Shown: positions 7,872 to 51,988 of the stretch, piece after piece
Layout: each line of letters begins with the position of its first letter
Numbering within the stretch: position 1 is the first letter of the stretch
DNA from: Eledone cirrhosa
Lineage: Eukaryota
DNA length: 64,000 nucleotides
Direction: 5' to 3'
NCBI GenBank assembly: GCA_964016885.1
Contig: OZ024741.1
Span: forward strand, 135,098,001 to 135,162,000
Translations under genes and position numbers: made by a program
The notes under the pieces: generated by a model
The model's input: the letters and a program-made list of their open reading frames with translations, nothing else
Told to the model about the DNA's origin: nothing
Databases searched by the model: none

Positions 7872-8180
7872 ATATAAAACGAAAAATCAGTTTATTGTGT
7901 TACAATTGTTTCGCCGGCAGATAGCTCGAGACATGATCGATCATTGTACGGATCTGTCTGATTCTAGATCTGCAGATTCTTCGGACACATGCAATAGTTT
8001 CGGAACAAATTTTCTCACTGGGGTGTTAGCTTCAAAAAACATCTTCCTCTCCTGTCTTGCTATTGGCTGCTGTTTTTCTACGTCATCAAATTCTGGTCAA
8101 TATTTGCTGCCAAACTGGCCATCAGCTACTCTCCGTCCGACACACTTCAATGGACTCATGCTGGGTTTGGTATTTCACAA
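7872..8180 (-). mobile_element. Non-coding hammerhead-bearing pLTR-like element (same family as 16950-17262)
   Basis: Colinear homology with 16950-17262, including the terminus ctgatttttcgttttatatt abutting (TA)n. Confidence 0.7.
7896..7989 (-). ncRNA. Hammerhead variant (CCGAAGA core, long stem II)
   Basis: tgtgt CCGAAGA atctgcagat...atctgccggc GAAAC AATT GTA acaca. Confidence 0.65.
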
Positions 8181-8502
8181 GTCCGCTCACACACACACAT
8201 ATACCCACACATACACACACACATATATACACATACACATACACACACACACACACGCACACGTACATATATACGCATACACATATGTACACACACATAT
8301 GTACGAATATTCACCCGCATACATATACATACACACTCTCTCTCGCACCCACACCCACACACGCCCACGACCATATACATACCAACACACACGTCCACAG
8401 GCGCCTGCCTATATGGCCTCCTACATCCGCTCTCACACGCACGCACGCACACCCACCCACATACACGTACACGCATACAAGGACACGATATATATAAGTG
8501 TG

Positions 8503-9302
8503 TGTGTGTGAGAAAAGAAACAGGATTGGGGTCGCAAAAAATATTTCAAATCCAAACGAAAAACTACAAGTTTTCCCCTACGAAATAACCTCCTCAGTCA
8601 AACGTACTTTCCCATCCTTCTTCGCCACGCCTCCACGCACTCCTGGAAGCATTTTCCCGGGATCTACACAGCTCCGTCTTCGCGGCCCTCCTGATGGCAA
8701 CCACGTTCGGAAAACGAGTCATACTCGAAGATCCATGTGATGACTCTCACCAGTAAGTCTGGCTCGGTTTCAAGACGCTCAAGGATGTCCTGACACGCCT
8801 GCATGCGCCGCTCCGCCCGGTCATCGTTCAGAAGTTTCAACACCATCTTCGCGCAGATCTTCTGCATGTCCGAATATGTGATAATTTTCCAAACGCTGTC
8901 GCGGTCCATGTTCAGCTTGCGATTAGTTGAACAGTCAGCCGATGTTGGTCTCAGTCCCGCTCGTTGAAGGCCTTCCGTTCCTGGTGTCATCTTCAACGTC
9001 CTCATGACACTCGAAAACCTATGAGCGCGACATCGTCTCATCTCCGTATACATGCTGCAGTATTCCGATGCTTCTGGCGGAGTTTTCAGGCTGGTTCGTT
9101 GATCTGTGCCCATTGCTCGACGGCCTAAAATTGAGGAGCTGATAACAAAAGCATATGAAAAAATCATACAATGGCTGTAGAGAGCTGAGATCGCAGTTAT
9201 ATACTCGCCAGATATTACGTCACATGATGATACAGCCCACTAATCCCTACCACAATCATAGCCTTCACAGCTCATTATGTCATGTTACTTTTCTGTCACA
9301 TA
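8503..9302 (-). mobile_element. Internally deleted, decayed mariner element
   Basis: Peptide MQKICAKMVLKLLNDD..RRMQACQDILERLETEPDLLVRVIT-WIFEYD (WVPxxL and TxDExW regions). Degenerate TIRs gtgtgagaaaagaaac / gttactttttctgtcac. Confidence 0.8.
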
Positions 9303-10113
9303 TGTATGTGTTTTGGTGTTGTTTTGTGTCCGTGTATACCTTTCTCTCTGTCTGTTTTTTGTTTTGTAACAGCATTTTAACCACGAGTATTCCAATTGTT
9401 CGAACGACGGAATGACTTGCTCATGAAATTTATCGTGCTAGTGGCCGAGCATTCCACAGACACGTGAACTCATAAAATAGTATGTCTTTACATGACTCGA
9501 TTAGTGAAAGAAAAATATAACAATAGAAAATATATATCTCCTGTTCGTTTGACCCTATTTTATCCTATACACAATATAATCTGCTCATTTTTGAGCTGTT
9601 CAAACGACTGCAACAGATTTCAATCAACGTTATATAAATGGTAGCTACAATTTGAATAACTCACAGGGGAGACCTATAAAGTGACTTTCAAAATGTCAGC
9701 CATTCTCTATATTCTTTGTTACATTGGCTTAGTAGTATTCATTTCTGATAGCCTCATACAAGCTAACGTAGTTTGACATTTCTACCAACGTTACTTACTA
9801 TTAATCAGTAGTTTTCGCTCTGAATGATTGTTGTTCTTTGGTTTAACACGTTATTTTCCAGAAAGCTCCACATAGTATGAATAAGTAGGAACGCAAATTC
9901 TCTCGTTTATTAAGTTACCTTCATTCCACAGTGAGGTGAATAGTGTGAGTTTATGAAATTTCCATTGATTGTTTGTAACAGAAATGATATAAATGTTAGC
10001 TTACCTACTTACTTTATGTACATTTTAATGTGTTCAGGTTAATCTATTCGAATATATACTATTTCGAAAATAAATTATCGGAGGGTTGAATTGATTGAAA
10101 TTTTTAGAAAATG

Positions 10114-10276
10114 TAGAAATATCAAACGCAGAAAATAACTGTAAAACGATCGATTGATATAATTAATAGCTTTAGAAATCTTGTAAAAAACCTTATAGAA
10201 GGAAAAAAGTTTTCTAAAGCTATTAGTTATAGCAATCGACTGTGCTTACAGTTAGTTTCTGCGTTTGAGATTTCTA
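10114..10276. repeat. Foldback inverted repeat (~65-bp arms, ~32-bp spacer), MITE-like
   Basis: tagaaatatcaaacgcagaaa...aatagctttagaaa is mirrored at 10211-10276. Confidence 0.75.
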
Positions 10277-10921
10277 TAACACACACACAAAACACACACA
10301 CACACACACACACACACACACACACACACACACACACACACACACACACACACACACACACACACACACACACACACACACACACACACACACACATATA
10401 TATACATGCATAGATGTGTATATATATATATATATATATATATGTTGTGTGTATATGTGTATGTATGTATGCATATAGATATGCATGTGTTATATATATA
10501 TATATATATATATATATATATATATATGCTTGTATATATATGTATATATATTTTTGTAAATATGTATATATGTATATGTGTTTGTATATATAGATATATA
10601 TATGTGTGTGTGTGTGTATATATATATATATATGGTTGGCAAACCACTGACGAGGGACTAATTTTATAATATGTAACCCATGTGCAACCACGCAGTATTC
10701 CTCTTTCTTCTCATGTTTATATATATATATATATATATATATATATATATATATAAATAAAGTAATGTACATATATAGAGAGAGGGAGAGACGTGGAGAA
10801 TGGAATCGATTCTTAGTTTTTCCCTTCCTTTCTTACGACTTCCGAATTTCCTATCAGTGTCGCCGTCCGATCTTCTTGGTTATCTCCCCTATTTTCATTC
10901 TACGAGAGCAGTTGTTGAGTG

Positions 10922-50248: not shown

Positions 50249-50348
50249 GTCACACTCATTCAGCGCATCGGTAGGGGTTCTCCTACATGGATATAAAGTA
50301 GTGGCCGTACTCGAAAACGAGTTGGCAGCCACCATGTATGTATGTATG
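50249..50348 (+). mobile_element. 5'-truncated 3' end of the adjacent RTE element with short (TGTA)n tail
   Basis: Near-identical to 50864-50950. Confidence 0.75.
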
Positions 50349-51008
50349 TCAGGTCACCAGTTGGTGCTACTGGTAACATGTATCCCAGTACAACCTGTCT
50401 CATGGTCGGGTCGTTGGTGACTAAACTGGCAACCCCACCAAGGTTTCTTGGTGAGGAGGGTGACTTTGGACATCCTGCAGGACTAAAAACAAAACCTGTC
50501 AAAGGAGCTCTTAAGAGTCAATGGCCATCCAAAATCACCGGGAGAGATGACCCCTTAGCCTTTGTCAAGGCAGAATTCTAGGAGAAGGAAAACTCTGATA
50601 TAACACCTGCAACCCTGATGGTATCCAATGATGTTGACTTGTTCTTCTTTTTGGTAAATATCATCTTGGTTAAGAGAGTGGGACTGGCTTTGTGCAGTGC
50701 CTTTGCTCACTATAAAAGCTTCACAGCACAGGCATTGCTTTATATCTGTAGATCTCTCTGCACTTGTCGTCACATGGTACCATGGGCCCAGCACTATGTC
50801 TGAATAATTGTCACAAGTGTAGTGTTTGTACCAGAGTTTTCAAGTCGCTGGCTGGACTAAGAAGTCACACTCGTTGAGCGCATCGGTAGGGGTTCTCCTA
50901 CATGGATATAAAGTAGTGGCCGTACTCGAAAACGAGTTGGCAGCCACCATGTATGTATGTATGTATGTATGTATGTATGTATGTATGTATGTATGTATGT
51001 ATGTATGT
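50349..51008 (+). mobile_element. Bipartite non-autonomous RTE (BovB-like) element: 5' UTR joined to C-terminal C2H2 finger, 3' hairpin and (TGTA)n tail
   Basis: RTE 5' UTR motif ggagaaggaaaactctga; peptide CSVCTRVFKSLAGLRSHTR; 3' stem-loop gtggc..actcg-aaaa-cgagt..gccac; tail 50950-51008. Confidence 0.75.
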
Positions 51009-51009
51009 A

Positions 51010-51635
51010 TCTCTTTCTCTTAATTTCGAGTATATTTTTTTGACCGGCCACCTTCCTGGTGGCAAGGTTGTAAAAGAAAAGAAATTGTCATCCCTTGAAT
51101 CGCAAGAATGTTTTGCAAATTTTGAAGGTGCCAGCTATCGCAGCCATTTGTAGACTATGAATTAGGGAGCTGCGCTTTTTGTCCGCAAATCCAAGTTCAG
51201 TCATACTTTGGTCTAAGCGGGTTGGTATATAACCCGTAGCCCCAACAATGATGGGTATGTATCTTGGATACTGGATTTGTAAACTCCTCATCAATGATCC
51301 GTAGATGTCCTCCTTCTCCTGTATTTTTCTGACAACGTTTACATCAAGTGGGCAGCTGATCTCCACAACAGAACACGTTTTCAATGTGTGGTCCCAAACA
51401 ACAATATCAGGCCGGTTGTGCTTTAATTTGGTGGCAGTTTTTATTTTCAGGTTCCACCAGTATTCCTTAGTGCCATCTGTCTCAATATATTCTTCCTCGT
51501 TTGTTAATTTTGTTTTCCGAAGTGCGTTCCAGATGGTTCTAGCTATCACATCGTGTCTCATGGGGAGGTAGTAGCGAGATGACATTCTTTCGCAGCTGGC
51601 AACAATGTGGCTTACATCCTGGATCTTTGTTTTAC
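51010..51635 (-). mobile_element. R4/Dong-type RLE retrotransposon 3' fragment, copy B
   Basis: HIVASC..RHDVIARTIW..RPDIVVWD..VEISCPLD..EKEDIY..IIVGATG, open to the stop at 51088. Flanked by (CATA)n. Confidence 0.9.
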
Positions 51636-51898
51636 ATGTATGTATGTATGTATGTATGTATGTATGTATGTATGTATGTATGTATGTATGTATGTATGTA
51701 TGTATGTATGTATGTATGTGATTCAGTGAATTACTGGTGGTACCAAAATGAGCACTCAATGCTCAGGTAGAGTGTAGATATTAAGAATAACGATGAAGTT
51801 TCGTTTACACGTATCTAGTTCTTTTATTGTGTATCTTTTACATGTATTTAGTTCTTTTATTGTCACCCATAGAATACTGTGTATTTTTTGTAGTATCG

Positions 51899-51988
51899 CT
51901 AGTCTGATGAGCAGATCGATAATAGATTTGGGTCCATAACTTCTATAGGTGACCTTGAGCCAATCCTCTGCGAAACGCGCGCAACAGG
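51899..51988 (+). ncRNA. Hammerhead motif (canonical CTGATGA core, long stem II, cleavage triplet mutated to GCA)
   Basis: CTGATGA gcaga...tctgc GAAAC GCGC GCA acagg. Confidence 0.65.

What the first reader, a model, noticed from the sequence alone, without database searches (positions are those of the whole stretch)
7896..51988. Conserved internal module inside the long stem II of four diverged hammerheads
Copies 7896(-), 17128(+), 13301(-) and 51899(+) align as: ~10-bp stem II, YAGA(A/G/T)TY, a 4-bp helix, an apical hairpin, the helix partner, then YGAGC. The helix covaries (AGAC/GTCT in two copies, GGGT/ACCT in the other two). Stem II also covaries (GCAGAT/ATCTGC versus GCGGGT/GTCCGC), while the YAGA and GAGC nucleotides stay fixed. 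Conserved loops with compensating stems point to selection on a tertiary contact or protein-binding site, for example for the PLE RT. The function is inference.
Basis: partly seen in the sequence, partly recalled or inferred. Interest (0 to 1): 0.75.

Follow-up and report, generated by a model that had tools for sequence, protein, structure and literature searches.

The report
Conserved motif in long-armed retrotransposon hammerheads
The self-cutting RNA motif at the ends of eleven related jumping-gene families in this octopus-like genome has an unusually long arm in which ten letters never change while the rest of the arm has turned over, which likely marks a docking site for the element's own protein, though neither binding nor cutting has been tested.

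Summary
The four copies are decayed ends of Penelope-like retrotransposons. Three module-bearing families link to ORFs with Hydra-clade motifs. I found the module in 11 families (5 lineages, 214 distinct copies). Stem II is 60-62 nt, against 10-24 nt in the published Hydra hammerheads. 'YAGA' is mostly paired: YRG/CYR covaries and pairs in 11 of 11 families, and RNAalifold recovers it. The module is YRG-AR-UC-NG on the 5' strand and CN-Y-GA-G-CYR on the 3' strand, always 9 nt from G12. Ten of 22 module positions are invariant, against 2 of 32 elsewhere in stem II, while 7 of 11 families carry a weakened catalytic core. Copy 51899 fits 'YAGA' only through private mutations and has lost its cleavage triplet. 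Best reading (0.45): a docking site for the element's protein that gates a protein-assisted ribozyme. Main rival (0.3): an RNA tertiary contact. Other Hydra families in this genome spread without the module, and no RNA data were available. The scan noted this long arm before on other DNA of this genome (e1-10322281). New variant of a known kind.

The parts
7897..7988 (-). Type I hammerhead fold, family A1 (core CCGAAGA with U4C, A.C mismatch at 10.1-11.1, 65-nt stem II with a private 4-nt insertion, palindromic loop 3, GUA triplet ending at 7901)
7922..7966 (-). Stem II module of copy A1: 5' strand 7966-7956, 3' strand 7932-7922, apical hairpin between
7870..8490 (-). Approximate extent of the 5'-truncated family A1 copy (end of the 3' UTR), joined to (TA)n at its 3' end
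13301..13387 (-). Type I hammerhead fold, family B (family core CCGUCGA with U4C and A6U; this copy CUGUCGA; GUC triplet ending at 13305)
13326..13365 (-). Stem II module of copy B: 5' strand 13365-13355, 3' strand 13336-13326
13245..13970 (-). Approximate extent of the 5'-truncated family B copy; longer copies elsewhere continue into an RT plus GIY-YIG ORF with Hydra-clade motifs
17128..17215 (+). Type I hammerhead fold, subfamily A2 (core CCGUCGA, A.C mismatch at 10.1-11.1, GUA triplet ending at 17211)
17150..17190 (+). Stem II module of copy A2: 5' strand 17150-17160, 3' strand 17180-17190
17266..17343 (+). Optional 3' tail of copy A2. It starts at the usual element end with a second cross-family hairpin motif (ACUCUG...GAGUG, here with one change) and ends at a second (TA)n junction
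51900..51987 (+). Type I hammerhead fold, family C, decayed copy: canonical CUGAUGA core but GCA in place of the family's GUA triplet
51923..51962 (+). Stem II module of copy C with three private changes in its 5' strand (family majority TGGAGTC)

Best explanation
These are decayed terminal-repeat copies of Penelope-like retrotransposons whose hammerhead has a 60-62 nt stem II carrying an invariant irregular-helix motif, which is likely a docking site for the element's own RT-endonuclease protein. Shown: the anatomy (9-bp basal stem, 2-nt bulge, covarying YRG/CYR helix, invariant A.G and R mismatch, invariant UC/GA, bulged Y, covarying 4-bp helix, variable apical hairpin); ten invariant nucleotides in 11 families; a constant 9 nt to G12; ORFs with Hydra-clade motifs upstream in families A, B and D; element ends about 48-56 nt past the cleavage triplet, with an optional tail. 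Predicted: the fold of the motif, as two extra pairs plus bulges or as a symmetric 4x4 non-canonical loop. Inferred: in tandem read-through RNA the ribozyme sits in the 5' UTR; the newly made protein would bind the distorted helix, hold the RNA for reverse transcription that starts downstream at the tail boundaries, and help the weak core (2-bp stem III, palindromic loop 3, often U4C or A6U) fold for delayed, probably dimeric, cleavage. Selection acted in the transposing lineages; the four window copies are likely inert.
For: Conservation: 10 of 22 module positions are invariant against 2 of 32 in the rest of stem II (Fisher p 0.0017, columns not independent). Between-lineage identity is 0.86 for the central eight nucleotides, 0.82 for the core, 0.40 for the basal stem and 0.33 for the apical part. 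Structure: covariation score 0.507 against 0.217 in shuffles (0 of 500) and at most 0.136 in slid controls; RNAalifold predicts the same register. Spacing is 9 nt in all 171 copies where it could be measured, of 214. The motif is kept while RT cores diverged to 61% identity (A versus B) and endonucleases to 46-68%. The core is less constant than the motif: U4C in 5 families, A6U in 2, an A6a insertion in 1, a 10.1-11.1 mismatch in 5; only 4 of 11 cores are canonical. U4C, an A6 change and A6a are reported to lower cleavage (PMC3088659). Genomic copies continue past the cleavage site, so uncleaved RNA was the template. In the anole PLE the hammerhead cuts only when the element's protein is added, and RT starts at two internal sites that define the tail (PMC11167929). 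No invariant partner at a fixed place was found in stem I or its flanks.
Against: No binding or cleavage data exist. A Hydra family in the same window (J, 2090-2215, canonical core, 83-nt stem II) and family K spread to many copies without this motif, and all 26 published Hydra hammerhead rows have a short stem II, so the motif is not needed by Hydra proteins in general. J and K share the start of the downstream tail motif, which is the better candidate for the general RT start signal. In the anole element an RNA starting at +20, which by my reading removes most of stem II, still supports insertion, and ribozyme-dead mutants insert normally (PMC11167929). The 11 families are only 5 lineages of one subclade in one genome. 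ORFs were not traced for C, E, F, G and H. Invariance alone cannot tell a protein site from an RNA contact.
Confidence: 0.45

Rival explanations
1. The motif is an RNA-RNA tertiary contact, within one molecule or between the two partners of a dimeric hammerhead, that replaces the usual loop 1-loop 2 contact and compensates for the weak core.
For: The distance to the core is fixed at 9 nt. Natural hammerheads need a helix I-helix II contact (PMC7229834), and PMC3088659 suggests that variant cores are offset by distal contacts. CAAUAAA or UAAUAAA lies downstream of the cleavage site in the families examined. Loop 3 is palindromic in most families, which fits dimer cleavage (PMC4209133).
Against: Stem I is short (4-7 bp) and varies (0.53 identity). 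Its distal extension beats shuffles in only 2 of 9 families (9 and 23 of 500). AAUAAA sits 6-7 nt further out in C, H and E than in the others while the motif does not move. The motif begins about 10 bp from the core, beyond a short stem I. A 5-6 bp complement of the 5' strand exists in the tail, but it is weak in lineage A (-2.2 kcal/mol) and shows no compensating change.
Confidence: 0.3
2. The motif is bound by a host factor (export, stability, translation or editing control) acting on the 5' UTR or the 3' end of the element RNA, and is unrelated to catalysis or to the element's protein.
For: In a tandem unit the hammerhead lies about 250-340 nt upstream of the ORF, in the 5' UTR (family J). 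A sequence kept invariant across families whose proteins are 46-68% identical is what one fixed host partner would produce.
Against: A host site would not obviously need a fixed 9-nt register to the catalytic core. No Rfam family matches.
Confidence: 0.14
3. The invariance is only shared ancestry, or a DNA-level element such as part of the internal promoter, and the RNA motif has no function of its own.
For: Module-bearing families form one subclade by protein similarity. Single copies do not fold better than shuffles. Copies decay at these positions too (58 of 1851 non-CpG cells, 3.1%).
Against: Adjacent stems have fallen to 0.33-0.40 identity with double-sided compensation, and most flanks no longer align between lineages. 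The invariant letters are split over two strands about 20 nt apart that face each other in the fold. They vary less within families than the stems do (3.1% against 5.1%, p 0.0003, copies not independent).
Confidence: 0.1

Closest known systems
Hammerheads of Hydra-clade Penelope-like elements (Craig et al. 2021, PMC8557442, section 11 and File S2)
   Same: Sense-strand type I hammerhead near the 3' end of a C-terminal-endonuclease PLE with RWK-like, DKT, CxCX5C, CxxC and CxH motifs; insertion into (TA)n; short palindromic stem III.
   Different: Published stem II domains are 10-24 nt simple hairpins in all 26 Hydra rows, including Hydra-1_oBim; here 60-62 nt with an invariant internal motif. 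3' UTRs are 1.5-2.4 kb here, whereas published elements are mostly under 3 kb in total. Seven of 11 families have non-canonical cores.
Minimal hammerheads of metazoan PLEs (Cervera and de la Pena 2014, PMC4209133)
   Same: Type I fold in PLE terminal repeats, short helix I, palindromic loop 3, thousands of dispersed truncated copies, many consensus families per genome, inverted pairs.
   Different: Their helix II is 7-8 bp with a conserved G10.1-C11.1 pair and no internal conserved motif in the parts I read; here 10.1-11.1 is a mismatch in 5 of 11 families.
Protein-assisted hammerhead of the anole Poseidon element PAc (Frangieh et al. 2024, PMC11167929)
   Same: Hammerhead upstream of two element ends that define an optional tail; copies run through the cleavage site.
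   Different: Different PLE clade; short stem II inside the ORF start; the tail here is about 80-110 nt rather than 30-40 nt; in PAc an RNA lacking most of stem II is still a template.
Bulged-G (sarcin-ricin/loop E) motif and kink-turn (definitions recalled, from no call)
   Same: Purine-rich asymmetric element with G.A or A.G appositions inside a helix.
   Different: The strands read AGUC/GAG rather than AGUA/GAA, with A at the bulge position in lineage A. The k-turn register would break two covarying helices.

Membership tests
Type I hammerhead ribozyme | Core C3-U4-G5-A6-N7-G8-A9 and G12-A13-A14-A15.1 with U16.1-H17 | tested here: inconclusive
   9 of 13 core positions are invariant in 11 families; U4, A6 and 10.1-11.1 vary; B2, C, H and E are canonical. 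Window copy 51899 lost U16.1.
Type I hammerhead ribozyme | Three helices around the core, helix I open | tested here: met
   Stem I 88.6% paired with 3 of 4 pairs changed on both sides; stem II 89.2%; stem III 95.5%. Rfam models do not detect it.
Type I hammerhead ribozyme | Self-cleavage after H17 | not testable with these tools
   No RNA run was listed; no in vitro assay.
Hydra clade of Penelope-like elements | [quoted passage not shown] | tested here: met
   Family B and family A (L480); family D endonuclease region only. Not traced for C, E, F, G, H.
Hydra clade of Penelope-like elements | DKT in place of DKG, and an RWK motif | tested here: met
   DKT in A and B; RWR in A and RWK in family J; definition. 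The N-terminus of B was not recovered.
Hydra clade of Penelope-like elements | CxCX5C linker; CxxC and CxH flanking the conserved E and N | tested here: met
   All three seen in A, B and D.
Hydra clade of Penelope-like elements | Insertion into (TA)n | tested here: met
   Most printed 3' junctions of the eight families shown run into (TA)n.
Hydra clade of Penelope-like elements | Placement in the clade on an RT tree with reference elements | not tested
   Published proteins were compared by eye only; no tree with references was built.
Neptune clade of Penelope-like elements | CX2-5CxxC linker with CCHH motif and DKG | tested here: not met
   The linker is CxCX5C and the motif is DKT (definitions).
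Non-LTR retrozyme | Short non-coding tandem repeats, each with a hammerhead | tested here: not met
   Copies are dispersed and 5'-truncated, and A, B and D lead into ORFs.
Kink-turn (definition recalled) | 3-nt bulge followed by tandem G.A/A.G pairs between a canonical and a non-canonical helix | tested here: not met
   A register with tandem G.A and a C-U-Y bulge exists and its first two canonical pairs hold in 11 of 11 families, but it leaves a 2-bp canonical stem and breaks YRG/CYR (11 of 11, covarying) and the 4-bp helix.
Bulged-G / loop E motif (definition recalled) | AGUA opposite GAA | tested here: not met
   ARUC opposite GAG in all 11 families; an S-turn-like geometry is not excluded.

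The most novel reading that the evidence does not exclude
In this subclade the hammerhead is being converted from a self-cleaving ribozyme into a protein-recruiting scaffold. The catalytic core drifts while an invariant stem II motif, together with the conserved tail hairpin, forms a two-part RNA element that loads the telomerase-related RT and positions its two internal start sites, in the way telomerase RNA loads TERT. It would be the first sequence-defined binding site for a Penelope-like RT.
Probability: 0.2. Interest if true: 0.8.

Novelty: new variant of a known kind. Interest (0 to 1): 0.5.

Why it matters
What the hammerhead does for Penelope-like elements, and how their telomerase-related RT recognises its RNA, are both open: PMC8557442 calls the function unclear, and PMC11167929 maps binding only to a 172-nt region. 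A 10-nucleotide invariant motif with natural compensatory variants, and a second conserved hairpin at the element ends, give precise mutational targets for those questions. It also shows that published descriptors with short stem II limits miss thousands of hammerheads in a genome like this one.

Tried and rejected
Rfam: whole-window scan at E<=1 gave 174 matches; the 150 shown were microsatellite-driven (microRNA families and two small-RNA models) and none lay on the four copies, 24 were not shown. No match at gathering score in 7 loci; only chance matches on two single copies. No RT relative in viral contigs. Other cephalopod genomes are not held, so cross-species conservation is untested. 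Sequencing runs: no RNA holder listed; three contig sets and one DNA read set were laid and say nothing on expression or cleavage; the small shares under organism codes B and C were not interpreted. A GIY-YIG frame beside one family A copy belonged to another family, X. My first label Neptune was dropped for Hydra after reading the clade definitions. An extended stem I looked plausible by cofolding but failed the shuffle control in 7 of 9 families. The k-turn and loop E readings were rejected. Families J and K were checked for the module and lack it; J has a loosely similar purine-rich loop further from the core that I could not validate. Pfam does not recognise the family B protein pieces. 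A family count from 40 evenly spaced 10-kb stretches gave one clear module copy and one degenerate one in 400 kb, so four in 64 kb is above average.
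Full report
Observation. The four stretches are present at the stated places. Each reads as a type I hammerhead: a short stem I, a seven-letter core, a 60-65 nt stem II domain, GAAAC, a four-letter loop, and the cleavage triplet followed by the stem I partner. A strict module-plus-GAAA pattern occurs three times in the window and in none of 100 Markov shuffles. Copy 51899 fails the pattern because it is decayed. Folded alone, no copy beats its shuffles, so everything below rests on comparison.

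Families. The window lies on a 416-Mb contig of a 3.0-Gb genome. The nearest named protein relative is from Argonauta hians at 49%, so the genome is octopus-like; this is an inference. DNA searches with three of the copies gave 2605, 2408 and 2454 first-look candidates, of which 40 each were scored. A covariance model run over fetched loci, and DNA searches with new hits, gave 214 distinct copies in 11 families: A1 33, A2 2, A3 5, D 27, G 22, B 34, B2 3, F 19, C 34, H 12, E 23. Ten hits of 90 nt or more were left unassigned, five of them other long-armed hammerheads; shorter hits and identical sequences were dropped before the count. By ribozyme similarity the families group into five lineages (A1-A3; D, G; B, B2, F; C, H; E). 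Upstream flanks do not align between lineages except A with G (223-319 nt at 68-70%), F with G (119 nt), A2 with D (23 nt) and E with F (median 32 nt; one 100% match that I read as overlapping loci).

Corrected structure. In family majorities, stem II is a 9-bp basal stem, a 2-nt bulge on the 5' strand, a 3-bp helix YRG/CYR, then AR opposite G, UC opposite GA, a bulged Y, a 4-bp helix and a variable apical hairpin. YRG/CYR pairs in 11 of 11 majorities, with U-A, C-G and U-G at its first pair and A-U or G-C at its second. On a MAFFT alignment of one real copy per family, this structure has 89.7% of cells paired, 14 of 24 pairs changed on both sides, and a covariation score of 0.507 against 0.217 for shuffles (0 of 500) and at most 0.136 for slid controls. 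The tool notes that shuffles ignore relatedness. RNAalifold, given no structure, predicts my register. Whether UC/GA is Watson-Crick (probability 0.66-0.86 in ten families, 0.22 in H) or the eight central letters form a symmetric non-canonical loop is not settled. One result is unexplained: R32 could also pair with the second letter of the 3' helix strand in 11 of 11 families, which rests on a single change in lineage A.

Is it more than ancestry? Ten of 22 module positions are invariant, against 2 of 32 in the rest of stem II (Fisher p 0.0017; columns and families are not independent). Between-lineage identity is 0.86 for the eight central letters, 0.70 for the module, 0.82 for the core, 0.40 for the basal stem, 0.33 for the apical part and 0.53 for stem I. 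The distance from CYR to G12 is 9 nt in all 171 copies where both anchors were intact; 147 of 214 copies keep all ten letters. Within families, non-CpG differences are 3.1% at the invariant letters, 3.9% in the core, 5.6% in the basal stem and 4.7% apically. That fits neutral decay after insertion plus subfamily change that spares the motif. The window copies show this decay: 51899 has three changes in the module and GCA for GUA.

Parent elements. Copies have fixed 3' ends and variable 5' ends. Family B continues more than 3.5 kb upstream into RT and GIY-YIG coding sequence on the same strand. Family A lies 2.4 kb downstream of a near-complete, broken ORF flanked by an inverted copy (L480). 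Family D follows an endonuclease region. The proteins carry DKT, RWR, CxCX5C, CxxC and CxH, the diagnostic motifs of the Hydra clade (PMC8557442 section 11), and resemble the published Hydra proteins by eye. A and B are 60.6% identical over 231 RT residues; endonuclease identities are A-D 68%, A-B 46% and B-D 48%. Family J, which lacks the module, is 49-50% (RT) and 33-36% (endonuclease) identical to them; family X, whose 3' end showed no module, is 40-44% and 34-43%. The module therefore looks like an inherited trait of one subclade. ORFs were not traced for C, E, F, G or H. All 26 Hydra rows of the published table have a stem II of 10-24 nt.

Context of the ribozyme. Elements end about 48-56 nt after the cleavage triplet at (TA)n. 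In 51 of 214 copies a tail of about 80-110 nt follows, seen in all 11 families, beginning with a second shared hairpin, ACUCUG...GAGUG. Window copy 17128 has it. Families J and K, without the module, begin their tails with a similar motif. In a tandem J unit of 3163 bp the hammerhead and tail precede a 747-residue open frame. This matches the anole element, where RT starts at two internal sites downstream of the hammerhead, uncleaved RNA is the main template, and the hammerhead cuts only when protein is added (PMC11167929).

Mechanism. The core is less constant than the motif: U4C in A1, A2, D, B and F; A6U in A2 and B; an extra A in A3; a 10.1-11.1 mismatch in A1, A2, A3, D and G. PMC3088659 reports low activity for U4C, A6C and an A6a insertion; A6U itself was not found there. 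Something other than fast autonomous cleavage therefore holds the motif fixed. An invariant, bulged, purine-rich distortion between covarying helices is typical of protein sites (my own knowledge). I commit to a site for the element's own protein that holds the RNA and gates a weak, probably dimeric ribozyme (0.45). Against it: J, K and the published Hydra elements do without the motif, and the anole RT uses an RNA that lacks most of stem II. A tertiary contact (0.3) fits the fixed spacing, but I found no fixed partner: the stem I extension beat shuffles in 2 of 9 families, and AAUAAA shifts by 6-7 nt in C, H and E. A host factor (0.14) and mere ancestry or a DNA element (0.1) remain.

Literature seen. 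PMC11167929: parts 1-2 of 4. PMC4209133: parts 1-2 of 4, no supplements. PMC8557442: passages, section 11, supplement parts 1-2 of 59 and two supplement searches. bioRxiv 10.64898/2026.07.22.740005: parts 1-2 of 5, supplements closed. PMC3088659: passages and section 8. PMC7229834: passages. Eight searches listed no paper that, by title or the parts read, describes this motif; the library lacks most subscription journals and Repbase entries. K-turn and loop E definitions are recalled. It is not independent support; my reading was recorded before I saw it.

Verdict. A real, selected RNA motif in a long-armed variant of a known class of retrotransposon hammerheads, so far from one genome, with an untested function. 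New variant of a known kind; interest 0.5.

Noticed in passing
window 2090-2215 (-); L536: Hammerhead of another Hydra family (J) with a canonical core and an 83-nt stem II that lacks the module; a tandem 3163-bp unit elsewhere holds a 747-residue open frame. Copies are about 98% identical, so the family is young.
   Followed up: partly
window 22062-22197 (-) and 16136-16290 (+): Two more hammerhead-like folds with very long stem II (95 and 114 nt), unrelated in sequence to the module; the first has a CCGAUGA core and a near-identical copy in L201.
   Followed up: no
window about 55846-55922 (-): Hammerhead with a 36-nt stem II, member of a further family seen 8 times in the loci then held.
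   Followed up: no
window 17266-17343 (+); 51 of 214 copies: Second cross-family RNA motif (ACUCUG...GAGUG hairpin with a 2-nt bulge) starting right at the usual element end; a similar start is seen in module-less families J and K. Candidate signal for RT initiation.
   Followed up: partly
L030:261-384 (+), family K: Young family (about 95% identity, 1714 first-look candidates) with a predicted branched 83-nt stem II and a canonical core.
   Followed up: partly
L005:904-1025, L040:2618-2740, L012:1117-1252, L038:2156-2293, L183:907-1029: At least three further families of hammerheads with 81-97 nt stem II; long arms appear to be common in this genome.
   Followed up: no
window 29974-32614 and 35782-39251 (+), 40570-41055 (-): Decayed LINE-type elements: APE endonuclease, RT and zf-RVT matches in broken frames.
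   Followed up: no
window 52635-53746: Tandem array with a 58-bp period, copies 98-99% identical.
   Followed up: no
window 23209-23527 and 23898-24216: 319-nt inverted repeat, 96% complementary, 370 nt apart.
   Followed up: no
L092-L120 (family X): Very abundant Hydra-like family (58017 first-look candidates for its C-terminal region) whose 3' end showed no canonical hammerhead in my scan, only a variant core-like word by eye.
   Followed up: no
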